A stretch of 64,000 bases of DNA from Dictyostelium discoideum (lineage: Eukaryota), in the NCBI GenBank assembly GCA_000004695.1, contig CM000151.3:6720001-6784000 (forward strand), in the 5' to 3' direction. The position numbers and the translations under genes were made by a program. The notes beneath the pieces are model-generated. The model searched no databases and was not told the DNA's origin. It saw only the letters and a program-made list of their open reading frames with translations. Positions within the stretch are counted from its first letter, which is position 1; the number at the start of each line of letters is the position of its first letter. Shown here piece after piece: positions 15,499 to 60,280 of the stretch.

Positions 15499-15924
15499 AA
15501 TAAAAATTAAATAAATAAAAAAAAAAAAAATAAAAATATAAAAAAAAAAAATATAAAAAAAATTAAAAGATGTGTTCATTTTTATTTTTGTTAAGTTATC
15601 TAATCAAAACTTAGAATAGAAAAAAAAGGCGCATGGTTTAAAAATATCTTAAGATCAACCAATGAAAGATTAAAAAATCATGATTTTTCATATAAATTTT
15701 AAAATTAAAAAGATATTTTCTTTTTATTATTATGTTAAAATACTAAGAATTCTTTTTCTTATTTTTTTTTGAAAAAATCAGAATTATTCCTTTTTTTTTC
15801 TCAATTTTTTTTCTAATTTTTTTTTTTTTTTTTTAATTTACGTTTATTAAATTTTCTTCAACTGCAATCCTTTCCAAATCATAAACAAATAAATAAAAAA
15901 AATAGTGAAAAAATTTCCAATAAA

Positions 15925-22325
<6,401 letters not shown>

Positions 22326-22577
22326 ATATTGAATAAATAAATTAAAAAAAAAAAAAAAAAACTTTAACTTACTAGATTTTTAAAAAAAAGGCAAATAAAA
22401 ATAAATTTAATTAAATAAAAAATTTGATTGGTCTAAATAAATAAATAAAACCATTTATAATAATGTCAATAAAAAATAATAATATTCTTAATTTTAATCT
22501 GTATCTTTTTTTTTCTTCTCATAATGTTTTTTTTTTTTAAATTTTTTTTTATTTTTTGAATCCTATATATTGATAAA

Positions 22578-23421: not shown

Positions 23422-23499
23422 TTTTTTTTGGTTTTTTTCTTTTTTTTTTTAATAAGATTTCTATTTATATTGAACACAAACTTTAATTTAACAAATGAA

Positions 23500-23548
<49 letters not shown>

Positions 23549-23559
23549 TGATTTGTCTT

Positions 23560-23596
<37 letters not shown>

Positions 23597-25194
23597 AAAA
23601 ATTTAACATTAAAATCTATTTTTTTTTTTCTTTTTATTAAAGAACCTTTTTGATATAATTTATTATCCTTTATTTAAACAAATATTTTATTATTTTATTT
23701 TATCTTTGAAAAAAAAGGGTAAAATTTTCATTATGGGGTTTAAAATTTTTTTTTTTTTTTAATTTGAAAAGTTATTTTTAGAACAATAATAATTTAGAGT
23801 ATTTAAAAAACATTAAAATCGATATGTGTATTTGATGGTTATTAATAAATGTTATGTTGAAATAACATTCTAAAAAAAAAGAAGGTTATCCAATGGTGAA
23901 AGTATGAGGGTATCCACAGAATTAAAATAGTTTCTATATTGTAAATGTACAATAGGAGGAATTACACAAAAAGCAAGAGTATACTGCAGAATAGTTGAAT
24001 CTTTTTGAAACATCATTTTTTATCATTTGACTAGAAATTGAATTAATTGGCCAATGCATCTTCAATTTATAAATCCAATTCTGAAGTCTTGGCTTTATAT
24101 ATTGAAGTATTTTCTTCATTATTTTAAAAAATAATACTTGGCACTTTCTTAATCAGTTCTCTTTCTGTTTCCAAAAAACAGTGACCAAAAAAACAATACC
24201 AATTTTTTTTTTTTTATTTTTTATGAAAAAGCTGGAAATTTTTAGGCATGTTTGAGACTCAGAAAATTTATGTACCAGAACATCTAGCTCATTCAATATT
24301 AATTATAATTATAAATATAAATAATACAAAAAATACTTTAATAAAAATAAATAAAAATAGGACTCCCAAATTTGGGTGGAGGTTAAAAAAAAATTAATAT
24401 TAAATTTTATTTAATTTTTTTTTAACAATAAAAAAAAAAAACTTAAAATTATGAGTATGTCCTGTTGGACTTTTTTTTTTTAAAGTTTTAAAAAAAAGAA
24501 AAAAAGAAAAAAAAAAAAAAAAAAGGAAATAAACCTTATAATTTTAAAAAGAATATAGCTTAAAATAAATTAAAAAAAATAAATAAATAAAAAGTTAATA
24601 TTTAATTAAAACAAATGATTATCACATGATTTTTTAAGTGAAAAACACTATTCAAGGAATGTTAATATCAATATTAATAATAATTATTTTTTATTAATAT
24701 TTTCGATATATATCGAAACTAACCCCCTACTCAAATTTTTAAAAATTTTATTTTTATTTTTTTTAAATTCTTATTTTTATTTAAATTTATTTTTTTTTTT
24801 AATTTATTTTAATTTTAATTTATTTTTTTTTTATTTTAATTTTTTTTTCTCACATTTTTTTTTTTTCCATACTAATTAAATTTTTTTTTTTTATTTTTTT
24901 ATTTTTTTTTTTTTTTTATTATTTATTTAAAAAACAAATAATAAATTAATAAATAATATTTACACCAAACAATAACCAAACGTCGAAAACGAAAAATCAA
25001 TTTCAAAAAAAAATAATAATAATTGTTAAATAATTTTATAATATTAATTTTATTTTATTTTTATTTAATTTTTTAATTTGTATTATTAAAGTCACACATA
25101 TTAAAAAAAAAAAAAAACAAACAAGAAAAAAAAAAAAAAAAAAAAAATCGTCTTATTAAAATAATTTTTCAATTGTAAATATAAACCATAAAAA

Positions 25195-25484
25195 ATGTCA
25201 TCAAACCATGATTTTGATATTGAAGAAAAGATAGCTTCATTGATTTTAGCATTTAGTCATAAAAGAGAAGTGATTTTAGAAGTTTTAAAAAGAAATAACT
25301 ATGGAATTGATGCATCGGCTTTGGAATTATCTGAAATGCCAGTAGTAGAACAACCACCATCACACCAACCACCACAATTTAGACAATCAAATAATAATAA
25401 TAATAATAATTATCCATCAAATAGACAAATTCCACAACAACCACCACCACAATATCAACAATATCATCAACAACAAAAACCACC

Positions 25485-25530
<46 letters not shown>

Positions 25531-25547
25531 CCACAACAACAACAACC

Positions 25548-25578
<31 letters not shown>

Positions 25579-27564
25579 GATAAAGAAAGAAGTGAATTAA
25601 TAAAAGATATTGAAAATTTAATTGGAAATAATAGTTTAGATCAATCTACAATTTATGCAGTTTATCAACAATCTAATAAATCAATTGATCAAACCATTAA
25701 AACTATTAAAGAATTAACATTTGATCCAAATGAAGAACTTAAAAAGATTGAAGCTGAAATTGAAATGAGAAAGAAAGAAGAGGAAGCAATGCTTGAAGCA
25801 AAGAAACAAAAAGAAAAACAAGAACAATTGAAGCTTACTGAACAACAACGTATTGAACGTGAACAAAAACAACGTATGGAACGTGCTGAACGTGAACAAC
25901 AACAACGTCTTCGTGAAGAATATGAAAGAAGATTAAATATGGAACTTCAAAAGAAATTGGAAATCGAGAGACAAGAACAAGAATTGACCAGAAGAAAACA
26001 ATTGGAACTTGAACAAATTATGATCCTCAAGAAACAAGAAGAGGCAGGACTCCGTATTCTTCAAGAACAAAGAGAACATCAAGAAAAAGTTCGTCTTGCT
26101 AAAGAGAAAGAGGAGGAATTAAAAAAAAGAACTATGGAAGAAGAAGCAAGGAGATCGGCAATTCGTGCACAAGAAATTGCAAGAATGTCTAAACAACAAC
26201 AACTCGAAGAGGAAGCCAAACGTTTGGAACAACAAAAGAGACAAGAAGCAGAGTTTATACTTGCATTGGAAACCAAATCCAAAGAGGCCAACCTTATGCA
26301 ACAACAAGCCTTTTTCTTAAAACAAAAAGAACAAGAGAATCTCCAATTGATTGAAAAACAAAAGAAAGAGATCTATGAAAATCAAATTCAAATTGATATT
26401 TTGAAACTAAAAGAAATGGAATCTCAAAATCAAAGCAAATCAATGTTGGAGAAAGCTCAACAAGAAATTCAAGACCTCAAGAAGAGATTGGCTGATGGTG
26501 AAACCAAATTCAATCAAGAAACCGTAAAGAAAACCTCTGATGAAGAAGAGCTCAAAAAACAAATTCAAGAACTTGAGCAACAAAAAGATGTACTTCGCAA
26601 ACAAATTCAAGAACTTGAGGTTGTTCAAAAACCAAGATTGGAGCAATTGGAACAAGAATTGAAAAATAAAGAATTGGAACTTCATAACACCATCATCTCT
26701 AATCAAGTCTCTTTGGCTTCAAGTCTCGAAGAAAACTCCACCGATACCATTGTTGTTCATTGGAATTTGGAAAATAAATTTGAAGATGGTACTCCATATT
26801 GGATTGGTGTTTTCCCAACTCACCAACCAAAGAATGATCGTTATCTCTCCTTCAAACACATAGAAGGTAAAGAGGGTTTGGTTAGTTTCCCATCCATTAT
26901 TCCAGGTCATTATGAAGCTCGTCTCTTTAAGGATAAATATACTCTTATTCAAAAGTCTAGCTCCATTCAAGTTGGTCCATCCGTTACTTTATCAGCTCAT
27001 GTAATTGGTGATGAAATCTCTGTCACCTATAAAGTAAACTCTGAAACTGGTGCCAACACTAAAGATTGGATCGGTATTTATCATCCAATTCAACGTAATA
27101 AACATTACATTGAGTCATTGTATGCTTCAACCTCTGGTACCATCACTTTCAAATCACCAAGAATACCAGGTCTCTATGAGATTCGTTACTTTTTACATCC
27201 AACCAAATATAATGAACAAGCAAAGATCTCATTTGAAATCATTGATAACGATAAGATTCAAGTCCTTAGTGAAAGTCAATCTTGTCTTACCCTCTCACCA
27301 GATCAAGAGTTTAGAGTTGAATATGTTGTAAACACAACCGCTCCTTCCTCTTCCGATTGGGTTGGTATTTTCCCTGTTGATGAAATTAATAACAAACATT
27401 ACATTCATTCCAAATATACAACTTCCGCTGCATCTGGTGAATTAACCTTTAGAGCTCCACTTAAGACTGGTGATTATGAAGCAAGATTCTTTTCTTATGC
27501 AAAAGGAAAATATATTGCTCACAAGGTTTCAAATAAATTCTCTGTGTTTCCTCAATCAAATTAA
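25195..27564 (+). CDS. Coiled-coil protein with a UBA/CUE-like N-terminal helix bundle, a poly-Gln tract, a long ERM/myosin-like charged coiled coil, and three C-terminal SKICH-like repeats (signature DW[IV]G[IV][FY]); 789 aa
   Basis: Single ORF. Three ~95-aa repeats each contain 'YWIGVFP', 'DWIGIYHP' or 'DWVGIFPV' followed by 'G.YEARFF', resembling the SKICH domain of CALCOCO/NDP52/TAX1BP1 (DWIGIF..YYTF). Confidence 0.55.
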
Positions 27565-28128
27565 ATAAAATTTAATGTGTGTGTGTTTTAAATAAAATAA
27601 AAAAAAAAAATTAAAAAAATTAAAATTAAAATTTTAATATATTTATAAGTAAATTATTTTATTAACTATTTCTATTTATTATTTTTATTTTCATTTTTTT
27701 ATTTTCATTTTCTATTTTTATTTTATTTTTATTTTTATTTTTTTATTTTTATTTTTTTTTATTTTTATCTTTTTTATTTTTATCTTTTTTTTTTTTTTTT
27801 GAGAGGAATAATAAACTTAGATATAGGAGTTTTCTCCTAATTTCTTTTTCATTATTTTATTTATTTATTTTATTTTATTTTATTTTATTTTTAATGTTAA
27901 AAAAAAAACATGATTCAATTTTCAATCGCATCATCCTTATTAGTATAAATTTTAAGATTTTAAGTTATTAAAAAAAAAAAAAATATCTTAAAAAAAAAAA
28001 AAAAAAAAAAAAATTTAAAAAAAAAAAAGGAAAAAAAAAAAAAAATGAAAAAATTAAAAAAAAAAATCAAAAATTAAAAAAAAAAAAAAAAACAAACCCC
28101 ACACAAATTTTTTTTTAAAACACATCAT

Positions 28129-28142
28129 TTAATAATAATAAT

Positions 28143-28212
<70 letters not shown>

Positions 28213-28231
28213 TAATAAATAATAAAAATAA

Positions 28232-28283
<52 letters not shown>
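28129..28283. repeat. (AAT)n microsatellite, intergenic
   Basis: Direct reading. Confidence 0.8.
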
Positions 28284-28284
<1 letters not shown>

Positions 28285-28687
28285 GCATAATTTAAAAAAT
28301 AAAAATAAAATAATTAAAAAAAAAATTTCAAAGATCTTTAAATGTGTTTGAAAATTATATATTAATTAACTTTTTTTTTTTTTTTTTTTTTTCAAAATAT
28401 TTACTTATAAATATATATATTAATATATTATTTAGATTAGTATTTAAAAATACTAGTATAAGGAAATAACATAAACAGGTTTTTTGTTATTATTTTTTTT
28501 TATTTTTTATTTTTGTAAATAGTGATAATAATAATAATTAGTAATAAAAAAAAAAAAAATAAAAAAATAAGGAGATAAAAAAAAAAAAAAAAAATAATAA
28601 GGAGATAAAAAAATAAAAAAATAAGGAGATAAAAAAAAAAAAAATAAAAAAAAAAAAAAAAGTTAAAGAAATAGGGAAACACTAATT

Positions 28688-28867
<180 letters not shown>

Positions 28868-28877
28868 GTTATTAAAA

Positions 28878-39543
<10,666 letters not shown>

Positions 39544-40042
39544 ATGAAATAAAATTAAAATTAAATAAATTTTCTATTATAAAAAAAAAATATATTTTTA
39601 ATGTTTTAACAAATTTTTTCAATTTTATAAAATCACAATCTTTAAATGGACTAAAACCTTTTCAATTATGTTGTTGGGAGCTCATATCACTATTATTTTT
39701 TATTTGATTATTTTTTCAAAAGAATTTTATAATTGTTATAAATAATTTATATTTATAAAAGTCTCTTTATTAAAAATTATTTTTATTATTTTAAATATAT
39801 TAATATATTACTATTATTTAAAATAGGTTAATATTTTACCTAAATAATTATTATTTTTATTATTTTAATCCAGATTTATTTTAAGTTTTTCTGAATGTTA
39901 TGAGAAGTGGTAAAAAGAAAAAAAAATTAAATTTTGTTATTTTAATCATAAGAGATTTTTGGAAAAAAAAAAAAAAACAATGTCCTATTTTTAGTTTCTA
40001 AACACCCCTTTTTTTTTTCAACTTCACACACAATCAGTTAAT

Positions 40043-40079
<37 letters not shown>

Positions 40080-40196
40080 TAATAAAAAAAAAAATTAATT
40101 AAAAATTTTAATTATTAATTAATAATAAAAAAATAAATATATATTAATAAACAGTTTTAAAATTGTGTTTATAAATAAAATTTAAATTTTAAAAAA

Positions 40197-41306
40197 ATGA
40201 AAGTAATATTTTTATTAATATTATTAATTTTATTAAAAATTGTTAAAAGTTATGAATGTAATTGTATATTAAAAGAATATTGTAAACCATTAGAAGTTGG
40301 TGAGAGAATAGAATTTATTGGATTTTCATTTAATTCAACAGGAAATTATTTGAATTATGATTATTATTCAGTTACAACTATTGCAATTTCATATCAATCT
40401 AATTACGATATACCAGAAGAATTAGTTTGTAAATCACATGAAAATAGAGTAAGATTAGTTTGGTCTGCAATTATTTCAAATAATCAAATATCAAATGAAA
40501 CCTATAGAAATCAATTTATTGATTCCATTGTTGAGACAATTCAAAAGGAAAATATGGATGGAGTAATATATGAATTAGATAATCCAAATGATTTAACCAT
40601 TGAAAATAGTGATTACTTTACAGAAATAATTAAAAAAACATATCAAAAATTGAAATTGATCAATTGGAATTATCAAATTTCTGCAAAATTTCCATTTTCA
40701 CCAAATATTGATTTTTCGTATAATTACCCTGAAATTTCATATTACAGTGATTATTTAGTTATAATGGATTATAATATTGGTAGTAGAGTTTCAAATGATG
40801 GTAACTATTGTTTAGCAGGCTCAAATTCACCAAATCCTTTGATTGAGCAAGGTGTTCACAATTTCACATCAATGGGTATTCCTGGTGAAAGATTGGTTTT
40901 AACATATCCATGGTTTGGTTTAGATTTTATTTGTTTCAATGGTAATTTATCAAGTGTAGATTGTTTAGTTACTAAAAGTGAAAATGTTAGTTGTAATGAT
41001 ATCAATTCAATTTCAAATCAAATAAGTTATGGTGAAATATTAAAGATTCTAAATGATGATAACATTATAAATGGTGGAATAAATTGGAATTCTCAAAGTA
41101 AATCAGTATTTTTCAATTATTATGATAAACAAGGTATCCTTCACCAAATTCATTTTGATAATCCAAAATCACTCTTTATAAAAGTATTTTTAACAAAAAG
41201 ATTAAAAGCAAAAGGTATTGCTGCTCAAAGCATGGATAATTTGGATTTTAATGATTTAGTAAATTCATATAATATGTTTGATACAATGGCTTATTTTTTC
41301 ATGTAA
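40197..41306 (+). CDS. Secreted glycoside-hydrolase-family-18-like (chitinase-like / CHID1-like) protein, 369 aa
   Basis: N-terminal signal peptide MKVIFLLILLILLKIVKS. 'MDGVIYELDNP' resembles the GH18 / CHID1 catalytic-region motif (DG[FI]..E). Single ORF. The family assignment is tentative. Confidence 0.4.
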   Translation: MKVIFLLILLILLKIVKSYECNCILKEYCKPLEVGERIEFIGFSFNSTGNYLNYDYYSVTTIAISYQSNYDIPEELVCKSHENRVRLVWSAIISNNQISNETYRNQFIDSIVETIQKENMDGVIYELDNPNDLTIENSDYFTEIIKKTYQKLKLINWNYQISAKFPFSPNIDFSYNYPEISYYSDYLVIMDYNIGSRVSNDGNYCLAGSNSPNPLIEQGVHNFTSMGIPGERLVLTYPWFGLDFICFNGNLSSVDCLVTKSENVSCNDINSISNQISYGEILKILNDDNIINGGINWNSQSKSVFFNYYDKQGILHQIHFDNPKSLFIKVFLTKRLKAKGIAAQSMDNLDFNDLVNSYNMFDTMAYFFM

Positions 41307-41549
41307 AATTTAATAAAATAAAATTAAAATTTTTTTTTTTTTTTTTTCCACATAATATATCGTTGAATAATACATTTAATTGATTATCAATTAAATTTAC
41401 AATTTAATTTATAATGGAATAAAATTTTAATTTTAATTTAATTTTTCCTGATAATTTCTATTTTTTTTTTTTTTTTTTTTTTTCAGACCCACTCTTTTTC
41501 TGAATCATTTTTTTTTTTTTTTCCATCTATACTATTTTTCAAATCAAAA

Positions 41550-42644
41550 ATGGAATTAAAATCATTTACATTTAAAGTTTCAAATGTTAAAAAATCAAAT
41601 ATTGAAATAAAAGATTTAGATATATTTGATATAGTTAATCCAAAAGAAAATGAATTTATTCCACTTGCAGAAAGAAAACAAACACTTAGCTTTAATGATA
41701 AACCTCAAGAAAAAAGGATTGTAAAATCATCATTTACAAAACAATCTAAATATATTGGAATTAATTCATTTATAGTATCTGCAATAAAAGCATATTCACA
41801 TCATCATCACTTAGTGATAAGAGTTGATGATATATGGATGGCAATATTAAATCAATTTTCAATTTATGTTAATTCAAATGCAGAGATATTAAGAGAAAAG
41901 TTTGTTGATTTCAATGGAAAGAAAACATTGACAGTGACTAGTAATGTTCCAATTTTAAGTGCACCCCTTGATCAATTAACAATTCAAATGGCTGAAAATA
42001 TAAAATCAAATATTATTGATCCATCCATTAGAGATTTGATTATTGGTGATTTTAGTACAACTACAGAAAATGATCGAGTTGTATATTCTGCATCATTAAT
42101 GTCAACTTTTAAAAGTTATTTTGATTATAGGTATATGACATTTTGTGGTTTACCAAGTGTTACATTGCAAGGATCAACTGAAGATTGGTTAAATTTAAAA
42201 CAAAGAATTGAAAGATTAATTGATTTTGAAATTGATAGTAGTAGTAAGACAGGTGAAATGAAAGAATGGGTTAGTATGTTACATCCAATAATAGATCAAT
42301 TCATTTCCACTTCAATGGGTAAACCAAATATTGAATGGTGGAATCAGATCGCTGATAAAAAACAATCATCTGGTAGTGTAAATTTAACTGGTTGGATCAC
42401 TGTATTTTGTGTATATGATAAAAATGGTAAATGGATTGGTAAAAAAGACACAACAAATTCACAATGGTTAAGAATAAACTTTGATTCCATCCCATTAGGT
42501 TATCTATCAACTCCAATAACTTTAATAGATTTTGATAGACAAGAATATAAATGTGATCTATTATCTGGTCATATGGCAATTAATATTGATTTAAATGATC
42601 AAACAATTTTAAAACCATCATTAGATTGGGTAATTATTAATTAA
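41550..42644 (+). CDS. Hypothetical protein, 364 aa (no confidently recognised domain)
   Basis: Single uninterrupted ORF with normal Dictyostelium composition, flanked by A/T-rich spacers. Confidence 0.4.
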   Translation: MELKSFTFKVSNVKKSNIEIKDLDIFDIVNPKENEFIPLAERKQTLSFNDKPQEKRIVKSSFTKQSKYIGINSFIVSAIKAYSHHHHLVIRVDDIWMAILNQFSIYVNSNAEILREKFVDFNGKKTLTVTSNVPILSAPLDQLTIQMAENIKSNIIDPSIRDLIIGDFSTTTENDRVVYSASLMSTFKSYFDYRYMTFCGLPSVTLQGSTEDWLNLKQRIERLIDFEIDSSSKTGEMKEWVSMLHPIIDQFISTSMGKPNIEWWNQIADKKQSSGSVNLTGWITVFCVYDKNGKWIGKKDTTNSQWLRINFDSIPLGYLSTPITLIDFDRQEYKCDLLSGHMAINIDLNDQTILKPSLDWVIIN

Positions 42645-43232
42645 AAAAAATAAAATAAAATAAAATAAAAATTAAAATAAGTGTTCTTCCACACATTTCT
42701 GCATATTTTTCCATTTAAAAGTTTTTTTTTTTTTTTTTGATACCACAAAAATTGCAAATAAAAAAAAATATTTGGATTTAATCAGCAGTGCACTAAAAAT
42801 AAAACAAATCAAGCAGTTGGGATCCAAAAAAAAAAAAAAAAAAAAAAAAAATTTTTATTTTATTTTTTTTGATTTTTTTTTTTTTTTTCAATTTATTTTT
42901 AAATTTAATATCCTGGCCATATAAAGTTTTTTTTTTTTTTTTTTTCATTCACACACAAACCTTTTTTTTTTTTTTTTTTTTGTTTTTTCAATTATTAAAT
43001 TTATTTATTATAATAATAAAAATAAAATAAATAAAATAAAAAAAGATATATTAAAATTTCATATTTTTTTTTTTATTTTAATTTTTTAAAAAAAAAAAAA
43101 TTTATTCGGTACCACAAACAAAAAAAAAATAAAAATAAAAATAAAAATAACAAAGATAAACACCCACACACACACACAACACACTTTTATAAACATATAG
43201 ATAATTATTGAATTCAATAGTATAAATAAAAA

Positions 43233-45975
<2,743 letters not shown>

Positions 45976-46971
45976 ATTTTAAATAACAATAACCAATAAA
46001 TAAAATAAAAAAAATAAAATAAAATAAAATAAAATAAAATAAAATAAAAATAAATCATATCAAATAAAATAAACATTAAATCATATAAAAAAAAAATAAA
46101 AAATATATAAATAAAAAAATAAAATTAAAACTTTTAAACAAAAAAAAAAAAAAAATATTTGTAAAAATTTTTTGGATGGGAAAAAAAAAATATATAAATA
46201 ATAAAAAATGTTTATATATTTTTTTTTTCCCATCCAAAAAATATTGAAATTTTTTTTTAATTTTTTTTGTAACTCATTTTATTTTGTTTATTTTTTATTT
46301 GATGTGATTTATTTTGTTTTATTTTAATCCAAAACCTATATTAAATTATAAAAAAAAAAAATTTCCAACTTTTTTGTTCATTCACAAAAACATTCTTGAT
46401 TAAAAAATATTTTATTCTTTTTTTTTGTAAGTCTCTTAGAAAACTCCAATCGAATTTTGCTATTTTAGGGAAAGCTGAGACCATTATCAATAATCTTTTA
46501 TTGATACTTTTCAAATATTTTAAATATTGGATAGGTAATTAGTTTTCTAATATGGTTACTGCTATTCATTTTTAAAATATAACAGAAGTGGTATGCCCTA
46601 GAATGACTTGAAGAATTTATATTTTATTTATAATTTGATTTATATATTTATTTTATTTAACTTTATTAATTTAATTAATTTAATATTAATTTATTTTTTT
46701 AATTTTAATTATATATTTATAATAAAACTAACCAAAGTATCTTCTAATGAAACTAACATTTATTCTATATAAAATGAGTTGACATAATTTTCCAAAAGAG
46801 ATTAATTAAAATAATATACTAATTTGGAAAATATTTTAATTTTATATTAATTAATGAATATCTAATTTAATAATATAAATTTTCTAATAAACTATTAAAA
46901 TAGTTTAGAAATAATTATAAAAAATTATTGTAACGAACGACTACTGCTTTCGTAACAAAAATTTCCATCAA

Positions 46972-47045
46972 GCCTTAGTAGCTCAGTTGGTACGAGCGTG
47001 AGACTGAAGATCTTAAGGTCGCTGGTTCGATCCCGGCCTGAGGCA
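46972..47045 (+). tRNA. tRNA-Phe (anticodon GAA)
   Basis: GCCTTAGTAGCTCAGTTGGTACGAGCGTGAGACTGAAGATCTTAAGGTCGCTGGTTCGATCCCGGCCTGAGGCA. Acceptor GCCTTAG/CTGAGGC. Anticodon stem TGAGA/TCTTA with loop CTGAAGA. T-loop GGTTCGATCC. A T5 run follows. Confidence 0.85.
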
Positions 47046-47312
47046 ATTTTTATGATTTTCTATTAAATTTGTTGAATTGGATAGCGCCTTCCAATAAACC
47101 CTTACATCCCATCCACCCCTAAGACACCTGTCAATAAAGAAAAAAAAACCGCACCGCGATCAAGAGGATACAAGATACACGTGAAAAGTAATTCATCCTT
47201 TTCTATCCTTAATCTCGGTCAATTTTAACCAATCTTTCAAAAAAAATCACCAATCCACCACGATCTACAGATCTAACTTACCAAATCGCCGATTCAAAGG
47301 AATCCCATCGAG

Positions 47313-48566
47313 ATGAATTCCTACGCAGACGCGGCTAAAATGGCCAACCCCTCCACCCATATGGACGAGGCATCAGAGAACTTCATTAAGGAATTCTCCA
47401 CAAAAACAGCAGAGATAAAGGAGACCTACCCCAAATTATCAATAGGCCTCAAAGACATCTCCAAATACTGCGAGACCATATTGAACATGACTGCTCTCTC
47501 AACCTACGAGAAAAACAACGGATTCTACCCAATTACACTCGAATTCCCCAAAATGGATCTCATGGGGTTAGAAGAAATGAGAAAAACACTCTCAAACTAC
47601 GATATCCCAATCGACAAGATATACATAGGCAAAGGAACTAGAAAAACGATCCACCTGATGATTAAAAACGAACAATCTCTCCTAAATATCATTAGAGATA
47701 GAAGCAAATTGGGAACCTTCATCACCTCCAGTAGAGACTACCACGTCCTCACAGGAAGAGTAAGAATTCCAAGAGAAAAGGCAGGAATAGTGGACGCCCT
47801 CATCAAAACTGCCTTTGCAGAAGAAATACCCTATGCAATATACCATACTATATACTCCACCGACCACCTCCTAGTATTCGGTCTAATAGAATGCAAAATA
47901 GGCGATCAAATGAAATCTGGCCAACACAATACAGAAATCGCCAACTTTACCATCAGAACGGCCACCAAAACCTACTCCTCACAAAAGAAAAATAAGAAAG
48001 TAGAGTCAAACAACACGGAAGAACCATTAGAAGATGAGATGACAGATGATCCTCCCAACATCCAAAACAGGATAGCAATCAAATCCTCTCAACCAAAACC
48101 ACAACAACAAACATACAACCCAGCAAACAATAAGTCTGATAAACAATCAACCCAAGAGAAAAAAGCCCAATCAAAAAAGTCCTCTCAACCTCTTCCCCCC
48201 AAAAACCAAGCAGAATCTCAATCTGTCAAACCCACCACAACCACTACCACAACATCCAACGCCATCCAAAAAGACAATGCCAACAAAACGAGCACTAACA
48301 TCCATTCATCCTCGGAAAACAGAGAGAAGACACCAAACATCCCTCCATCACATAAACGCAAGAACGAGGAAATCCACTCAAACAACGAGGTCACCCAACT
48401 CTCACCAACAATAAACAGAAGCAACCCTTACATCCCATCCACCCCTAAGACACCTGTCAATAAAGAAAGGAAAGGAATCATTGAGAGCTTCATAGAGAGT
48501 ATCTACCCTTCACCATCCAAACCGCAGCTATACGACTCCCAAGAGGAGATCGATATCATCTCATAA
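47313..48566 (+). CDS. Retrotransposon ORF1 protein (417 aa, Ser/Thr/Gln-rich C-terminus)
   Basis: Single ORF immediately upstream of, and overlapping, the endonuclease-type ORF2 start. Present in two copies in the window. Confidence 0.55.
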   Translation: MNSYADAAKMANPSTHMDEASENFIKEFSTKTAEIKETYPKLSIGLKDISKYCETILNMTALSTYEKNNGFYPITLEFPKMDLMGLEEMRKTLSNYDIPIDKIYIGKGTRKTIHLMIKNEQSLLNIIRDRSKLGTFITSSRDYHVLTGRVRIPREKAGIVDALIKTAFAEEIPYAIYHTIYSTDHLLVFGLIECKIGDQMKSGQHNTEIANFTIRTATKTYSSQKKNKKVESNNTEEPLEDEMTDDPPNIQNRIAIKSSQPKPQQQTYNPANNKSDKQSTQEKKAQSKKSSQPLPPKNQAESQSVKPTTTTTTTSNAIQKDNANKTSTNIHSSSENREKTPNIPPSHKRKNEEIHSNNEVTQLSPTINRSNPYIPSTPKTPVNKERKGIIESFIESIYPSPSKPQLYDSQEEIDIIS

Positions 48567-48698
48567 TGGTAGTAATCAAAATCAACCAATGGAATGTCAG
48601 AGGTTGGGGCACTGACACCTCCTTCAAAAACAAAACAGACTTTATCAAATCCCAATCCCCCCCAAACTCATTGGCAATAACCATAGTCAATGAACTCA
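48566..48698 (+). CDS. Retrotransposon ORF2 N-terminus (endonuclease start), truncated by the N-gap
   Basis: MVVIKINQWNVRGWGTDTSFKNKTDFIKSQSPPNSLAITIVNEL, then Ns. Confidence 0.5.
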
Positions 48699-48798
48699 NN
48701 NNNNNNNNNNNNNNNNNNNNNNNNNNNNNNNNNNNNNNNNNNNNNNNNNNNNNNNNNNNNNNNNNNNNNNNNNNNNNNNNNNNNNNNNNNNNNNNNNN
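48699..48798. other. Assembly gap (100 N)
   Basis: Run of n characters. Confidence 1.
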
Positions 48799-48833
48799 CG
48801 CCAGTGTGATGGATATCTGCAGAATTCGCCCTT
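48799..48833. other. Cloning-vector contamination: pCR2.1/pCR-TOPO polylinker (CGCCAGTGTGATGGATATCTGCAGAATTCGCCCTT) abutting the gap, followed immediately by insert sequence
   Basis: The string GCCAGTGTGATGGATATCTGCAGAATTCGCCCTT (EcoRV and EcoRI sites, ending at the TOPO GCCCTT junction) is the standard TA/TOPO vector sequence flanking inserts. It is G+C-rich and unlike the host DNA. Confidence 0.85.
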
Positions 48834-50388
48834 GCTGGTAGTGCGTGGGCGTTGAGTTCATTGACTATGGTTATTGCCAATGAGTTTGGGGGGGATTGGG
48901 ATTTGATAAAGTCTGTTTTGTTTTTGAAGGAGGTGTCAGTGCCCCAACCTCTGACATTCCATTGGTTGATTTTGATTACTACCATTATGAGATGATATCG
49001 ATCTCCTCTTGGGAGTCGTATAGCTGCGGTTTGGATGGTGAAGGGTAGATACTCTCTATGAAGCTCTCAATGATTCCTTTCCTTTCTTTATTGACAGGTG
49101 TCTTAGGGGTGGATGGGATGTAAGGGTTGCTTCTGTTTATTGTTGGTGAGAGTTGGTTGACTTCATTGTTTGAGTGGATTTCCTCGTTCTTGCGTTTATG
49201 TGATGGAGGGATGTTTAGTGTCTTCTCTCTGTTTTCCGAGGATGAATGGATGTTAGTGCTCGTTTTGTTGGCATTGTCTTTTTGGATGGCGTTGGATGTT
49301 GTGGTAGTGGTTGTGGTGGGTTTGACAGATTGAGATTCTGCTGGGTTTTTGGGGGAAGAGGTAGAGATGACTTTTTTGCTTGGGCTTTTTTCTCTTGGGT
49401 TGATTGTTTATCAGACTGATTGTTTGCTGGGTTGTTTGTTTGTTGTTGTGGTTTTGGTTGAGAGGATTTGATTGCTATCCTGTTTTGGGTGTAAGGAGGA
49501 TCTGTCATCTCATCTTCTAATGGTTCCTCCGTGTTGTTTGTCTCTACTTTCTTGTTTTTCTTTTGTGAGGAGTAGGTTTTGGTGGCCGTTCTGATGGTAA
49601 AGTTTGCGATTTCTGTAATGTGTTGGCCAGATTTCATTTGATCGCCAATTTTGCATTCTATTAGACCGAATACTATGAGGTGGTCGGTGGAGTATATAGT
49701 ATTGTATATTGCATAGGGTATTTCTTCTGCAAAGGCAGTTTTGATGAGGGCGTCCACTATTCCTGCCTTTTCTCTGGGAATTCTTACTCTTCCTGTGAGG
49801 ACGTGGAAGTCTCTACTGGAGGTGATGAAGGTTCCCAATTTGCTTCTATCTCTAATGATATTTATGAGAGATTGTTCGTTTTTGATCATCAGGTGGATCG
49901 TTTTTCTAGTTCCTTTGCCTATGTATATCTTGTCGATTGGGATATCGTAGTTTGAGAGTGTTTTTCTCATTTCTTCTAACCCCTTGAGATCCATTTTGGG
50001 GAATTCGAGTGTAATTGGGTAGAATCCGTTGTTCTTCTCGTAGCAGTCATGTTCAATATGGTCTCGCAGTATTTGGAGATGTCTTTGAGGCCTATTGATA
50101 GTTTGGGGTAGGTCTCCTTTATCTCTGCTGTTTTTGTGGAGAATTCTTTAATGAAGTTCTCCGATGCCTCGTCCATATGGGTGGAGGGGTTGGCCATTTT
50201 AGCCGCGTCTGCGTAGGAATTCATCTCGATGGGATTCCTTTGAATCGGCGATTTGGTAAGTTAGATCTGTAGATCGTGGTGGATTGGTGATTTTTTTTGA
50301 AAGATTGGTTAAAATTGACCGAGATTAAGGATAGAAAAGGATGAATTACTTTTCACGTGTATCTTGTATCCTCTTGATCGCGGTACGG
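48834..50388 (-). mobile_element. Inverted second copy of the TRE-type retrotransposon 5' region (5' UTR 50388..50225, ORF1, ORF2 start); a few substitutions relative to the left copy
   Basis: Reverse complement of 47149..48698 with a handful of mismatches. Extends 18 nt further into ORF2 (..NELNAHALPA) before hitting the vector. Confidence 0.6.
49215..50224 (-). pseudogene. Second ORF1 copy, disrupted by a frameshift near 49985 (split into 82-aa and 259-aa ORFs)
   Basis: Left copy reads NMTALSTYEKNNGFYPITLEFPKMDLMGLEEM. Right copy reads NMTATRRTTDSTQLHSNSPKWISRG* and then restarts at MDLKGLEEM. This could be a sequencing error in a single-clone gap-filling read. Confidence 0.5.
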
Positions 50389-50442
50389 TTTTTGTTTTTT
50401 TTTTTTTTTTTACCTAAAAGTGGTGTAGGAGCAATTACATAG

Positions 50443-50518
50443 TTGAAAAAAGGAATTGAAAAAAGGGATTGAAAAAAGGAATTGAAAAAAGGAATTGAAA
50501 AAAGGAATTTTTTTTTTT
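50443..50518. repeat. Tandem array of a 13-bp unit (ggaattgaaaaaa), ~5 copies, adjacent to a T-run
   Basis: Direct reading. Confidence 0.8.
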
Positions 50519-50627
50519 TTTTTTTTTTACCTGTGATCAGACCTTCAAGGAATGTCCTTGTGTCTTTTCGGCGGTGTTTGTTAAACGATTTTATTTTTAT
50601 TATTCAATTGTATTAAATTTTTTAAAC

Positions 50628-50663
<36 letters not shown>

Positions 50664-50782
50664 ACTACTACTTAAATTGGAAGAGGGTTCGGAACTACTG
50701 GGGTTTGCCAGGCTTTGTTGAATTTGTATTTGTGAAGATCTTGATTGGTGTTTTTTAGTATTGCTTCGTCGTGTTTGATTTT

Positions 50783-51247
50783 CTATAGTGTGATGAATTT
50801 TTCAGTTTCGATGAGATTTAGTAATTCTGTTTCTATGACCTTTTGCTCGAATTTTGGCTCTGGTTTGCTTTCATCAGTGTTGAACAATTTTTGACAGATT
50901 ATCTTCCATAATTGGTGTGCTATTATTCCTATGAGATTGGGGAAGATTCTCTCAGTTCTGTTATATTTTGATATGTCTAAGGTATCCATTGACCATCTGT
51001 GGATTTTGATGAATGATAATTTGTTAACTGTTGATATGATGGTTTTTTCAATATCTAGGATATCTCGGCATAGAGTGAAGAGGTGAGAATAAGGGTCTCT
51101 GAATAGGTGGCCACAGATCTTGCATCTGGTGTCTCTTTCGTGGTTGATACCTGGAAGTGATCTTGAGAAGAAGGTGTTTCTACCTTTTTGGTGAGAAATG
51201 CTGTTGATGTTTATGAATACTTTGGGTATTGCTGTGTTGTATCTCAC
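50783..51247 (-). mobile_element. C-terminal fragment of a non-LTR retrotransposon ORF2 (Cys-His motif CKICGHLFRDPYSHLFTLC) with a 3' UTR and oligo(A) tail (to ~50520), bracketed by 13-bp tandem arrays
   Basis: A C-x2-C-x12-H-x4-C motif at the extreme ORF2 C-terminus is typical of non-LTR elements. The minus strand ends in a long A-run at 50540..50521. Confidence 0.5.
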
Positions 51248-51250
51248 CGA

Positions 51251-51330
51251 TTGAAAAAAGGAATTGAAAAAAGGAATTGAAAAAAGGAATTGAAAAAAGG
51301 AATTGAAAAAAGGAATTGAAAAAAGGAATT
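51251..51330. repeat. Tandem array of the 13-bp unit (ggaattgaaaaaa), ~6 copies
   Basis: Direct reading. Confidence 0.8.
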
Positions 51331-51360
51331 TTTTTTTTTTTTTTACCTAAAAGCGGTATA

Positions 51361-51540
51361 AATTGAAAAAAGGAATTGAAAAAAGGAATTGAAAAAAGGA
51401 ATTGAAAAAAGGAATTGAAAAAAGGAATTGAAAAAAGGAATTGAAAAAAGGAATTGAAAAAAGGAATTGAAAAAAGGAATTGAAAAAAGGAATTGAAAAA
51501 AGGAATTGAAAAAAGGAATTGAAAAAAGGAATTGAAAAAA
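51361..51540. repeat. Tandem array of the 13-bp unit (ggaattgaaaaaa), ~14 copies, ending 2 bp from tRNA-Pro
   Basis: Direct reading. Confidence 0.8.
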
Positions 51541-51542
51541 GT

Positions 51543-51614
51543 GGGGAGATCCGAGAATCGAACTCAGGACGCTACCACCCAAAGGTAGCATTATACCACT
51601 TAACTAATCTCCCA
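51543..51614 (-). tRNA. tRNA-Pro (anticodon UGG)
   Basis: Reverse complement reads GGGAGATTAGTTAAGTGGTATAATGCTACCTTTGGGTGGTAGCGTCCTGAGTTCGATTCTCGGATCTCCCC. Acceptor GGGAGAT/ATCTCCC. Anticodon stem CTACC/GGTAG with loop TTTGGGT (U33, UGG, G37). T-loop GTTCGATTC. Confidence 0.75.
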
Positions 51615-51685
51615 TTTTGGAATTTTTGAATTTTAATATCTAATATTATTCCTTTAATCTTTTACGATTGTGAATTATAAAAATT

Positions 51686-51759
51686 TGCCTCAGGCCGGGA
51701 TCGAACCAGCGACCTTAAGATCTTCAGTCTCACGCTCGTACCAACTGAGCTACTAAGGC
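51686..51759 (-). tRNA. tRNA-Phe (anticodon GAA), second copy, inverted relative to 46972..47045
   Basis: Exact reverse complement of the tRNA-Phe sequence at 46972..47045. Confidence 0.85.
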
Positions 51760-52072
51760 TTGATGAAATTTTTATTTTTTATACTTAATAAGGGTTCGAG
51801 TAATTTTTTTAAAAATATCGAGATTCAAATGAAATTAAAGGATTTCAATAGCATCCTATTTTTTTTTTTTTTACATATAATTTCAACACAAGAGAAAATA
51901 AAAAAAATGGTTCTTTTTCCCCACAATTAAAAAATTTGATGAACATGAATAAAGGATTAGAAGAAAATTAATTTTTTAAAGCCAATTTAAATTTATTAAT
52001 AATGCATTAATAACTTTTTATTTCTCGAACCATTGATTAAGGGTAAAAAAAATTAAAAAATAAAAAAAAGTA

Positions 52073-52075
<3 letters not shown>

Positions 52076-52132
<57 letters not shown>

Positions 52133-52135
52133 TTA
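52076..52135. repeat. (ATT)n microsatellite downstream of the HECT gene
   Basis: Direct reading. Confidence 0.8.
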
Positions 52136-52154
52136 TAGTAAAGTTTTTTTTAAA

Positions 52155-57982
<5,828 letters not shown>

Positions 57983-58048
57983 TTATAAATGTATATATGT
58001 ATATATATATATATTATTTTTTTTTTTTTTTTTTTTTTTTATTATTCT

Positions 58049-58087
<39 letters not shown>

Positions 58088-58159
58088 TAAATATGACTTA
58101 AAATTATTTATGTTAAATATTTAAACTGTGGATTATGATAAAAATGATAAAAAAAAAAA

Positions 58160-58194
<35 letters not shown>

Positions 58195-58378
58195 CGAGAC
58201 CAAATTTGTAACCGTGTTCAAAACTATTCTACGTGGTCTTAAGCCTACTTTTTTTTTTTTTTTTTTTTTAATTTCTCTATCCCAAAAATATCAATCTAAT
58301 TTTTTTTTCAGCATTCGATTTGTTTTTATAAAAAGTGGGAGAATAAAAAAAAAAAATAAAAATAAAAACTAAAAATAA

Positions 58379-58412
<34 letters not shown>

Positions 58413-58443
58413 AAAAGAAATTAATTTAAAAATAAAAAAAAAT

Positions 58444-58479
<36 letters not shown>

Positions 58480-58626
58480 AAATTTTTAGAAAAGTTTCCA
58501 AACCAACCCAAATTATAAGAGATTGAACAAATATAATAAAAAAAAAAAACAAATAAAAAAAAAAAAGATTATAAACTTTTTTTTTTTTTATTTTTTTTTT
58601 TTTTATAATTTAAAATATTTGGATGA

Positions 58627-60280
58627 ATGAATAAATTTCTACTGAAAAGAGAACTTGGTATATGTAATGAAAGAAGAGAAATAATTGATGAAATTAAAAG
58701 AAGTATAAGACATCTCGATTTATCAGTATATAAACAAATTATAAACTATAATAAAGGTCCTATCAATCATTTAGATATTGATGTTGCTGAAAATAGATAG
58801 TAATGTATAATAATATATTTAATATTAAAATTTTAAATTTATTTTAAAAATAAAATTTTTCTAACTATTTTCTTTTTTTTTTTTTTTTCTCTCTGTCATA
58901 TATATATATAGTTTATTATCTGTTAGTGGTGATGGAATAATACAAATTTATGATTTATTTGAAAATTTATTAAATAATAAAAAAAATAATGAAATTAAAA
59001 CAGAATTTCAACCAATATTAAAAATAAATAGAAAAAGTAATAATAATAATAATAATAATAATAGTAATAGTGAAGGTATTTTATTAAAAGGTATATCAAG
59101 TGTTCAATGGTACCCAATTGATACAGGAATATTTTTTATTGGTGGTGTTAATGGTAATGTTGAAGTATGGGATACTAATCTTGGACAAGTTTCACAAACA
59201 TTTTATCTTGAGAATTGTGTAAATTCAATATCCTACTCTCAAGTTAATTGTACCAATTTATTAATTGCCGCTGCAACAACTGATCCAAAAGTTAGACTAT
59301 GTGATATGCGTACAAACTCTTCCGTTCATTGTTTAACAGGTCATCGTGAAAGTGTACTCTCAATTAAGTGGTCACCTTTCTCTCCAAATTTAATTGCAAC
59401 CGCTTCAAAAGATAAAACAATTAGATTATGGGATATACGTAGAGGTGATACATTTCTATTTGCTTTAGATCAATATAATGGTAGTGGTATTGGTATTGGT
59501 GTTGGTGGTGGTAGTGGTGGTGAAAGTAATGATGATGTTGGTAATGATATTGGTGGTGGTAATAAGAATGATTTAAAGCAATCAAAAAGGTATAGACAAA
59601 AATTACATAAACCTAAATCACTTCAAACCAGTAGTAGTTCAATTATTGAGAAAAGAAATATTGGTGGTGGTGGTGGTGGTATTGGTGGATCAGCTAATTT
59701 AACATTGAAAAAAGAGGTACCAACTGCTCATAATGGTACAATCACATCAATTGCTTGGACACCCGATGGTAATTATTTAGTTAGTACAGGAGCTGATAGT
59801 AAAATTAGATTATGGGATATTCAAAAAGGTGGTGCAAATACAATGATCAATTATCCAAATGCTCACAATGTTCACAAAATACCAAATCAAATTTGTTTAT
59901 CTACCAATGGTCAATATCTATTTCATCCAAATGGTAGAGCGATTCATGTTTATGAAACTGCAACAGGTAATTTAGTACGTCAATTAAAAGGTCATTTTGA
60001 AAAAGTCAATTGTTGTGTTTTTAATCATTGTGATCAAGCTTTAATCTCTGGTTCAAATGATAGATTAACTTTGTATTGGGATAATTCAAATGATGATCAA
60101 ATTGATGATCAACAATTTTTAAATGAAGAAAAACAAAATAATCAAAATAATGATGATGATAATAATAATTTTCAAGTTACTACTAATACAACAACTAAAA
60201 CTTCAACAACAACAACAACATCAACAACAATATCTCCTCCGACAACTTTAGAAGATGTTGATAATTGGAGTGATGATTAG
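58627..60280 (+). CDS. Cockayne syndrome A (CSA/ERCC8) WD40-repeat protein orthologue; 2 exons (58627..58799, 58912..60280), ~513 aa, with Gly-rich and Asn/Thr-rich insertions
   Basis: A phase-2 TA|GTAATG donor and TATAG acceptor splice to give '...NKGPINHLDIDVAENRYLLSVSGDGIIQIYDLFEN', parallel to human CSA '[34 protein letters not shown]'. Further blocks: VQWYP.DTG.F, KVRLCDMR..S..H.L.GHR..VL...WSP, ATAS.D...RLWD.RR, TAHNG.I......DG..L...GAD...RLW, K.NCCVF. Confidence 0.8.

What the first reader, a model, noticed from the sequence alone, without database searches (positions are those of the whole stretch)
48699..48833. Assembly gap flanked by TOPO cloning-vector sequence at the centre of a 1.5-kb inverted repeat
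Immediately after the 100-N gap comes CGCCAGTGTGATGGATATCTGCAGAATTCGCCCTT, the pCR2.1/pCR-TOPO polylinker up to the GCCCTT insertion junction. It is followed by retrotransposon ORF2 sequence in reverse orientation. The flanking arms (47149..48698 and 48834..50388) are near-perfect inverted copies. This looks like an untrimmed gap-closure PCR clone, so the inverted arrangement and the right-arm sequence are suspect. The ORF-track entries 48566..48841 and 48668..48985 translate through the Ns and vector and are artefacts.
Basis: seen in the sequence. Interest (0 to 1): 0.55.

Follow-up and report, generated by a model that had tools for sequence, protein, structure and literature searches.

The report
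Leftover cloning-vector sequence beside assembly gap
Next to an assembly gap in Dictyostelium discoideum AX4 chromosome 2 sit 35 bases of a commercial PCR-cloning vector and a 19-base PCR primer, a finishing artefact that should be trimmed. The surrounding inverted pair of retrotransposons is real and ordinary.

Summary
The window's only N-run (48699-48798, 100 N) is followed by a 35/35 match to the pCR-TOPO polylinker, ending at the GCCCTT cloning junction (48799-48833). The next 19 nt (48834-48852) read as a PCR primer. They match retrotransposon ORF2 at the correct position in only 15 of 19 bases, and the left contig stops exactly at the mirror position of the primer's 3' end.

The window is D. 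discoideum AX4 chromosome 2. An independent, gap-free assembly (GCA_054883475.1) reproduces both sides colinearly, including the right arm in the same inverted orientation. It lacks the vector and places 8,511 bp where the reference has the gap plus vector.

So the inverted arrangement is genuine. Two TRE3-type non-LTR retrotransposons lie tail-to-tail downstream of convergent tRNA genes. The right copy is a different, degenerate copy: 97.8% identical to the left, ORF1 broken, a 2.6-kb ORF2 deletion and its own target-site duplication.

Only the innermost ~257 nt of the right arm (48834-49090) are unreliable. All 7 substitutions on that side fall there. Three of them carry the allele of the other copies, which suggests a PCR chimera.

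The ORFs that run through the Ns and vector are artefacts. This is a curation matter with little biological interest.

The parts
46972..47045 (+). tRNA-Phe(GAA) gene, the target of the left (+) retrotransposon cluster
   Evidence: ARAGORN. Also present in the independent assembly at L001 9660-9733.
47097..47148 (+). Roughly 40-nt copy of an internal TRE3 segment (equivalent to 48423-48465) ending in AATAAAG plus an A-run, fused directly upstream of the left copy's 5' end
   Evidence: Direct repeat D6, 96% identical; sequence read.
47133..48698 (+). Left arm: 5' part of a full-length TRE3-type non-LTR retrotransposon. It holds the 5'UTR, an intact ORF1 (47313-48566, 417 aa) and ORF2 codons 1-44 (48566-48698). 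The contig ends at the base before the mirrored primer site.
   Evidence: It is 1566/1566 identical to the independent assembly. Its ORF1 corresponds to the annotated DDB_G0276397 (partial).
48699..48798 (.). 100-N gap of unknown size. It stands for 8,511 bp in the independent assembly (together with the 35-nt vector stub it replaces).
   Evidence: only N-run; ASM 11387-19897 lies between the two matching blocks.
48799..48833 (+). pCR-TOPO family polylinker: partial NotI site, BstXI, EcoRV, PstI, EcoRI, then the GCCCTT topoisomerase junction. This is vector contamination.
   Evidence: 35/35 match to the polylinker (recalled sequence). The identical string precedes an unrelated insert in a Zero Blunt TOPO clone read (PMC7827051). 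It is 100% identical in the engineered strain BL21-AI between tet(B) and T7 RNA polymerase and in E. coli 536. It is absent from L001 and L002.
48834..48852 (+). First 19 nt of the cloned insert, GCTGGTAGTGCGTGGGCGT: PCR-primer-derived sequence, antisense to TRE3 ORF2 codons 45-51
   Evidence: It aligns without gaps to the adjacent genomic bases with 15/19 matches, and its 4 mismatches are private with respect to all three copies compared. P = 1.2e-6 for 15 or more matches out of 19 by chance. The left contig ends exactly at the mirror position of its 3' end.
48853..49090 (-). Inner part of the right arm. At 48874, 48983 and 49090 it carries the allele of the left/other copies rather than that of the right copy: probably a PCR chimera or mixed repeat reads.
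   Evidence: Five-way alignment. These are the only substitutions in 48853-59991 against the independent assembly. Fisher test p = 1e-5.
48853..50404 (-). Right arm: 5' part of a second, degenerate TRE3-type copy in the opposite orientation. ORF1 is broken by 10-, 3- and 1-nt indels.
   Evidence: Every discriminating site from 49157 to 50189 matches the right copy of the independent assembly.
50428..50439 (+). Right-hand copy of the 12-nt target-site duplication GGAGCAATTACA of the right TRE3 insertion. The left-hand copy lies in the sequence hidden by the gap.
   Evidence: The motif occurs at ASM 18859 and 21492, and once in the window at 50428.
51543..51759 (-). tRNA-Pro(UGG) (51543-51613) and tRNA-Phe(GAA) (51686-51759), convergent with the left tRNA-Phe; the targets of the (-) retrotransposon cluster
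   Evidence: ARAGORN. The same convergent tRNA genes are present in a divergent strain that lacks the TRE3 pair.

Best explanation
This is a finishing artefact in the D. discoideum AX4 chromosome 2 reference. It lies inside a real, ordinary cluster of tRNA-targeted retrotransposons. Two TRE3-type non-LTR elements inserted downstream of convergent tRNA genes, each in the orientation of its tRNA gene. They therefore lie tail-to-tail and form a natural inverted repeat that shotgun assembly could not cross. To anchor the repeat ends, PCR products were made from each unique flank to a primer in the 5' end of ORF2 (antisense, GCTGGTAGTGCGTGGGCGT) and cloned in a pCR-TOPO vector. On the left side, vector and primer were trimmed, so that contig ends at 48698. 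On the right side, 35 nt of polylinker and the 19-nt primer were left in. The two contigs were then joined by a 100-N gap of unknown size, which hides 8.5 kb. That hidden stretch holds the rest of the full-length left element, a 170-nt TRE3 3' fragment, another TRE-like element, and the 3' part of the internally deleted right element. Because the ORF2 primer anneals to every TRE3 copy, the primer-proximal ~240 nt of the clone came from another copy (a PCR chimera). Shown: the vector identity, the organism, the real arrangement, the gap content, and where the discrepancies lie. Inferred: the use of one shared primer for both sides, the chimera mechanism, and the finishing history.
For: Vector: 35/35 match, unique and not expected by chance. 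The same string plus GCCCTT precedes an unrelated insert in a Zero Blunt TOPO clone (PMC7827051). It also occurs in the engineered strain BL21-AI and as a 68-nt polylinker stretch in E. coli 536. Organism: exact protein matches to AX4 chromosome 2 genes. Arrangement: window 37305-48698 matches ASM 1-11386 (99.88%) and window 48833-59991 matches ASM 19898-31035 (99.75%), colinear with no N; the vector and the exact 19-mer are absent. Separate copies: 34 mismatches and 3 indels between the arms, and every discriminating site from 49157 to 50189 is right-copy-specific. The right copy has a TSD, a 2.6-kb ORF2 deletion and a poly(A) tail. Primer: 15/19 ungapped identity at the correct position, the mirrored contig end, and the general fact that the ends of a TOPO-cloned PCR product are its primers. 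Local unreliability: 7 substitutions in 48834-49090 against 0 in 49091-59991, p = 3e-12. Biology: ORF2 has RVT_1 at 1e-33 and an APE-type nuclease region. The left copy lies 52-103 bp and another copy 50 bp downstream of a tRNA gene in the same orientation, matching the TRE3 preference of about 100 bp downstream (PMC5006619).
Against: UniVec/VecScreen itself could not be run. The 35-mer had no hit in PLSDB, GTDB genome contigs or IMG/VR, as expected for collections that do not hold cloning vectors. The strain and sequencing technology of GCA_054883475.1 are not known to me; near-identity, with only homopolymer differences over 10.9 kb, suggests an NC4/AX-lineage strain. The primer sequence was not found in the literature, and the genome papers' methods were not available, so the finishing history is inferred. 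The chimera claim rests on only three sites. The left contig end at the mirror position could also come from some other trimming rule.
Confidence: 0.93

Rival explanations
1. One reading: the whole right arm is a misplaced or mis-oriented gap-closure clone, so the inverted repeat is an assembly artefact.
For: The vector stub sits exactly at the inner end of the right arm, and both arms end at the same element coordinate.
Against: The independent assembly has the right arm in the same orientation, contiguous with 9.6 kb of right flank. The arms differ at 34 sites and 3 indels, and the window's right arm carries the right copy's private alleles. A TSD flanks the right copy. Convergent tRNA genes explain the convergent insertions.
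Confidence: 0.02
2. The polylinker is really in the genome of the sequenced AX4 stock, through in-vivo integration of plasmid DNA.
For: The reference cannot exclude it on its own, because the other side of the stub is a gap.
Against: The junction is exactly the CCCTT topoisomerase cloning site followed by primer-like sequence, which is the signature of in-vitro TOPO cloning. The independent assembly reads continuous TRE3 ORF2 at this position with no vector.
Confidence: 0.01
3. The 19-mer and the three nearby substitutions are natural differences between AX4 and the strain of the other assembly, for example gene conversion between TRE3 copies, rather than primer and PCR-chimera sequence.
For: The strain of GCA_054883475.1 is not documented here. 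The left flank does contain a cluster of 6 substitutions at 42673-42853.
Against: All 7 substitutions on the right side fall within 257 nt of the vector junction, with none in the next 10.9 kb. The first bases of a TOPO insert are primer-derived by construction. The three sites all switch to the allele shared by the other copies.
Confidence: 0.07
4. Chance resemblance of native Dictyostelium sequence to a vector polylinker.
For: None.
Against: About 6e-19 occurrences expected, 0 of 100 shuffles even at 3 mismatches. Four restriction sites sit in a row. The string is absent from the orthologous position in the independent assembly.
Confidence: 0

Closest known systems
Vector or adaptor contamination of deposited genome assemblies (the kind flagged by NCBI VecScreen/UniVec or FCS-adaptor)
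   Same: An exact stretch of a commercial cloning-vector polylinker at a contig end next to a gap, ending at the cloning junction and absent from an independent assembly.
   Different: Nothing essential. The stub is short (35 nt) and starts 3 nt before the end of the NotI site, so an earlier screen probably trimmed only part of it (inference).
E. coli 536 reference chromosome NC_008253.1, about 8006-8073
   Same: It carries the same pCR-TOPO polylinker...GCGAATTGGGCCTCTAGATGCATGCTCGAGCGGCCGCCAGTGTGATGGATATCTGCAGAATTCGCCCTT, in the yaaJ-tal intergenic region. It looks like the same kind of untrimmed PCR clone.
   Different: It is in a bacterial genome, not next to a gap, and has a longer stub (68 nt). 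I did not check whether it is absent from other E. coli genomes at that position.
TRE3 tRNA-gene-targeted non-LTR retrotransposons of D. discoideum (PMC5006619, PMC5633606)
   Same: Two ORFs, ORF2 with APE and RT regions, a poly(A) tail, a TSD, insertion about 50-100 bp downstream of tRNA genes in the same orientation, and nested clusters at tRNA genes.
   Different: The subfamily (TRE3-A versus B, C or D) was not determined because no reference sequence was available. The right copy has a 2.6-kb ORF2 deletion. Both copies here carry poly(A)-tailed foreign fragments fused to their 5' ends.

Membership tests
pCR-TOPO cloning-vector contamination | Exact match of at least 30 nt to the vector polylinker | tested here: met
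   35/35 to the recalled pCR2.1/pCRII/pCR-Blunt II-TOPO polylinker. The identical string occurs in a published Zero Blunt TOPO clone read (PMC7827051), in engineered BL21-AI and in E. coli 536 with 33 further polylinker bases. UniVec itself was not available.
pCR-TOPO cloning-vector contamination | The match ends at the topoisomerase cloning junction (C/T)CCTT, followed by insert | tested here: met
   ...GAATTCGCCCTT|GCTGGTAG... at 48822-48833|48834. The same junction precedes an unrelated insert in PMC7827051.
pCR-TOPO cloning-vector contamination | Absent from the same locus in an independent assembly of the organism | tested here: met
   The 35-mer is not in L001 or L002. ASM 11387-19897 reads continuous retrotransposon sequence instead.
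pCR-TOPO cloning-vector contamination | Which member of the vector family it is (pCR2.1-, pCRII-, Blunt II- or XL-TOPO) | not testable with these tools
   The 35 nt are, from memory, shared by these vectors, and no backbone sequence is present (no M13, T7, SP6 or lacZ motifs in the window).
TRE3 non-LTR retrotransposon (D. discoideum) | Two ORFs, with ORF2 ordered APE endonuclease, reverse transcriptase, zinc finger | tested here: met
   ORF1 is 417 aa. ORF2 is 1234 aa in L001, with RVT_1 at E = 1.1e-33. Exo_endo_phos is below the cut-off in the left copy (E = 0.0017, 18.6 bits against 24.5) and at the cut-off in the right copy (24.5 bits). A C-terminal Cys/His motif is visible but was not scored.
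TRE3 non-LTR retrotransposon (D. discoideum) | Insertion about 100 bp downstream of a tRNA gene | tested here: met
   The left copy starts 52-103 bp after tRNA-Phe(+). The L002 copy starts about 50 bp after tRNA-Arg(+). The right copy is 1.1 kb from tRNA-Pro(-), with later insertions in between. Criterion taken from PMC5006619.
TRE3 non-LTR retrotransposon (D. discoideum) | Poly(A) tail and target-site duplication | tested here: met
   Poly(A) tails at ASM 15064-15086 and, on the reverse strand, 18873-18903. TSD GGAGCAATTACA for the right copy and ATATGAAGA for L002.
TRE3 non-LTR retrotransposon (D. discoideum) | Sequence identity to a named TRE3 consensus (A, B, C or D) | not testable with these tools
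   No reference TRE sequence is held. The source databases name the proteins only 'hypothetical'.
Artefactual inverted duplication (mis-assembled or chimeric clone) | The arms are the same DNA used twice, with no independent support for the second arm's placement | tested here: not met
   The arms are 97.8% identical with 3 indels. The right arm and its flank are reproduced in the independent assembly.

The most novel reading that the evidence does not exclude
Apart from the artefact, both TRE3 copies at this locus have a short poly(A)-tailed fragment of another RNA fused directly to their 5' ends. At 47097-47148 it is an internal TRE3 segment ending at an AATAAA signal plus A9. At 50397-50427, on the reverse strand, it is ...TACACCACTTTTAGGT plus A16, a motif that recurs at 51329-51360. 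If these fragments were made during insertion, they would be footprints of the TRE3 reverse transcriptase jumping from the 5' end of its template onto the poly(A) end of a second RNA, as in L1/U6-type chimeras. To my knowledge this has not been described for Dictyostelium TREs. The alternative is that each element simply inserted next to an older, severely 5'-truncated insertion.
Probability: 0.15. Interest if true: 0.3.

Novelty: not a real feature. Interest (0 to 1): 0.08.

Why it matters
The value is for curation. 54 nt of non-genomic sequence (48799-48852) and about 240 nt of wrong-copy sequence sit in a widely used reference genome. They generate spurious ORFs and can mislead searches, primer design and transposon annotation. 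The gap can now be filled with 8,511 bp from an independent assembly, which would restore a full-length TRE3 element with intact ORF1 and ORF2 (5'UTR to poly(A) tail) and the true structure of a tRNA-associated transposon cluster. It is also a caution against over-correcting: the inverted repeat looked suspicious but is real, produced by convergent tRNA genes acting as retrotransposon targets.

Tried and rejected
1. I searched for the 35-mer in PLSDB plasmids, GTDB genome contigs and IMG/VR and found no hits. These collections do not hold cloning vectors, so the result is uninformative rather than negative.

2. The D. discoideum genome papers (Eichinger 2005, Gloeckner 2002) are not held. The centromere paper from the same group describes gap handling but not TOPO cloning.

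3. The 19-mer primer sequence was not found in the literature. No paper was found for assembly GCA_054883475.1.

4. Two homology searches with the right-flank kinase-RCC1-HECT gene, meant to reach the right flank of the independent assembly, returned no D. discoideum protein. Exact look-ups of several right-flank ORFs also failed. The flank was finally reached by reconstructing the annotator's spliced 320-aa model of the right copy's ORF1.

5. I first read the 19-mer as an 8-nt deletion variant of the genomic sequence. Ungapped alignment at the adjacent position (15/19) is the better reading.

6. Pfam gave nothing significant for ORF1, in line with the statement in PMC5006619 that TRE ORF1 proteins lack known homology.

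Full report
OBSERVATION

The window has a single N-run, 100 N at 48699-48798. It is followed by CGCCAGTGTGATGGATATCTGCAGAATTCGCCCTT at 48799-48833. This string is unique in the window. It has no match in 100 shuffles even with 3 mismatches allowed, and about 6e-19 occurrences are expected from base composition. It is 51% G+C in a roughly 26% G+C window. Read directly, it contains BstXI, EcoRV, PstI and EcoRI sites back to back.

Around it lies an inverted repeat. The left arm is 47133-48698 and the right arm is 50404-48853. Over 1,552 aligned nt they are 97.8% identical, with 34 mismatches and indels of 10, 3 and 1 nt. The ORFs at 48566..48841(+) and 48668..48985(-) run through the Ns and the 35-mer.

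VECTOR IDENTITY

The 35-mer matches 35/35 the right-hand polylinker of the pCR-TOPO vectors as I recall it (...GCGGCCGCCAGTGTGATGGATATCTGCAGAATTCGCCCTT|insert). Three independent checks support this.

- A published read of a clone made with the Zero Blunt TOPO kit prints ...CTCGAGCGGCCGCCAGTGTGATGGATATCTGCAGAATTCGCCCTT followed by an unrelated mouse insert (PMC7827051).
- Among 5,426 complete E. coli genomes the 35-mer occurs in only four. One is the engineered expression strain BL21-AI, where it sits between tet(B) and the T7 RNA polymerase gene in the ara locus. The two others besides strain 536 were not examined.
- The fourth is E. coli 536, where 68 nt of the same polylinker lie in the yaaJ-tal spacer.

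PLSDB, GTDB contigs and IMG/VR gave no hits, as expected for collections without cloning vectors. No other vector motif is present in the window.

ORGANISM AND LOCUS

Proteins encoded in the window are exact matches to D. discoideum AX4 chromosome 2 proteins: the GH18 protein EAL69263 and DDB_G0276367. The left arm's ORF1 is annotated as DDB_G0276397 (partial).

THE DECISIVE TEST

The same exact proteins occur in another D. discoideum assembly, GCA_054883475.1, on contig JBTAPE010000033.1 (4.9 Mb). I fetched 31,035 bp of it (L001 plus L007, no N).

- Window 37305-48698 aligns to positions 1-11386 at 99.88%.
- Window 48833-59991 aligns to positions 19898-31035 at 99.75%, in one colinear block and in the same orientation.
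- The vector is absent.

So the inverted arrangement, the right arm and its linkage to the right flank are all genuine. The reference's gap plus vector stands for 8,511 bp.

The hidden stretch has four parts.

- The rest of the left element: ORF2 of 1234 aa with RVT_1 at E = 1e-33 and an APE-type nuclease region, then the 3'UTR and a poly(A) tail ending at 15086.
- A 170-nt TRE3 3' fragment with its own poly(A) tail (15151-15320).
- A different TRE-like non-LTR element in + orientation (15321-18870; ORF1 of 291 aa, APE, RT).
- The 3' part of the right copy in - orientation, with its poly(A) tail appearing as a T-run at 18873-18903.

The right copy lacks 2.6 kb of ORF2. It is flanked by a 12-nt target-site duplication, GGAGCAATTACA, at assembly positions 18859 and 21492; the second is window 50428.

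WHY AN INVERTED REPEAT IS THERE

The elements have two ORFs, an APE-RT ORF2, poly(A) tails and TSDs. They sit downstream of tRNA genes in the orientation of the tRNA gene. The left copy lies 52-103 bp after tRNA-Phe(+), and another full-length copy (L002) lies about 50 bp after tRNA-Arg(+). This is the published behaviour of TRE3 elements, which insert about 100 bp downstream of tRNA genes (PMC5006619; PMC5633606).

The locus has convergent tRNA genes: Phe(+) at 46972, and Pro(-) and Phe(-) at 51543-51759. Convergent tRNA genes — Phe(+), plus an Ile(+) not seen in the window, facing Pro(-) and Phe(-) — are also present in a divergent D. discoideum strain (93-97% identity) that has no TRE3 pair. 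Convergent targets give convergent insertions, which produces a natural inverted repeat that Sanger shotgun assembly could not cross.

THE 19 NT AFTER GCCCTT

GCTGGTAGTGCGTGGGCGT (48834-48852) aligns without gaps to the bases that follow in the real element, but with only 15/19 identity. Its 4 mismatches are private with respect to the three copies compared, and 15 or more matches out of 19 has p = 1.2e-6 by chance.

The ends of a TOPO-cloned PCR product are its primers, so I read this as the primer. It is 68% G+C with a Tm of about 60 C. It lies antisense in ORF2 codons 45-51 and points toward the element's 5' end and the flank.

The left contig stops at 48698, exactly the mirror position of the primer's 3' end. 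I infer that the same primer was used with a unique-flank primer on each side. The left product was trimmed of vector and primer; the right one was not.

HOW MUCH OF THE RIGHT ARM IS UNRELIABLE

Against the independent assembly, the right side (48834-59991) has substitutions only at four positions in the primer and at 48874, 48983 and 49090. From 49091 to 59991 there are only six homopolymer-length differences. That is 7 substitutions in 257 nt against 0 in 10,901 nt, p = 3e-12.

At the three non-primer sites the reference carries the allele shared by the left copy and L002. At all of the roughly 40 discriminating sites from 49157 to 50189 it carries the right copy's allele. A switch of this kind next to a primer that anneals to every copy is what PCR template switching would produce. 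Mixing of repeat reads during assembly is an alternative. This part rests on only three sites and is an inference.

The left arm is 1566/1566 identical to the independent assembly.

VERDICT

The vector claim, the untrimmed PCR clone and the artefactual ORFs are confirmed. The suspicion about the inverted arrangement and the right arm as a whole is refuted. Only 48799-48852 is foreign sequence, and only 48853 to about 49090 is of doubtful copy origin. This is a known kind of artefact in an ordinary transposon cluster. Its value is in correcting the reference.

LIMITS

UniVec could not be searched. The strain and technology of GCA_054883475.1 are unknown to me; its near-identity to the window suggests the same laboratory lineage. 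The finishing history is inferred, because the genome papers were not available and the primer was not found in the literature.

Noticed in passing
L004 2968-3035 (E. coli 536, NC_008253.1, about 8006-8073): The RefSeq chromosome of E. coli 536 carries 68 nt of the same pCR-TOPO polylinker (GCGAATTGGGCCTCTAGATGCATGCTCGAGCGGCCGCCAGTGTGATGGATATCTGCAGAATTCGCCCTT) in the yaaJ-tal intergenic spacer. It is probably another untrimmed gap-closure clone in a reference genome.
   Followed up: partly
window 47097-47148 and 50397-50427 (also 51329-51360): Both TRE3 copies have a short poly(A)-tailed fragment fused directly to their 5' ends. On the left it is an internal TRE3 segment ending at AATAAAG plus A9. 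On the right, on the reverse strand, it is TACACCACTTTTAGGT plus A16, and nearly the same 16-mer plus A16 recurs at 51329-51360. These are either tiny older insertions or template-jump chimeras.
   Followed up: partly
window 50441-50510, 51249-51330, 51361-51541: A 13-nt tandem repeat (AATTGAAAAAAGG)n starts right after the 3' end of tRNA-Pro(-) and is split into three blocks by poly(A)-ended insertions. It looks like an original microsatellite-type target that was hit repeatedly. It is absent from the divergent strain L006.
   Followed up: partly
window 50638-51248 (- strand): A 5'-truncated fragment of another TRE-type ORF2 C-terminus (154-aa ORF with a Cys/His motif, ...CKICGHLFRDPYSHLFTLC...) followed by a poly(A) tail (the T-run at 50638-50665). 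It is part of the nested cluster downstream of tRNA-Pro and tRNA-Phe(-).
   Followed up: no
window 42673-42853: Six substitutions and a 4-nt indel relative to GCA_054883475.1 cluster within 180 nt of the intergenic region after DDB_G0276367, while the rest of the 9.8-kb left flank differs only by one homopolymer indel. This is either a low-quality patch in the reference or a local polymorphism.
   Followed up: no
window 52155-57982 (- strand): A large gene encodes a protein with RCC1 repeats, a protein kinase domain and a HECT domain, interrupted by long poly-N/T tracts. Orthologues were found in D. purpureum, Tieghemostelium and Acytostelium, but the D. discoideum protein itself was not returned by the protein index.
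   Followed up: partly
L006 16700-18820 (GCA_054859385.1, divergent D. discoideum strain): Between the convergent tRNA genes this strain has an extra tRNA-Ile(+) and, at about 17046-17480, an intronless ORF resembling ribosomal protein L27e with an internal stop, in place of the TRE3 cluster. The locus is highly polymorphic between strains.
   Followed up: no
L001 14923-15086 and 15151-15314: The 3' end of the left TRE3 copy is followed 64 nt later by a second, 100% identical 164-nt 3'-end fragment with its own poly(A) tail. It is either a severely 5'-truncated second insertion or a tandem 3' duplication.
   Followed up: no
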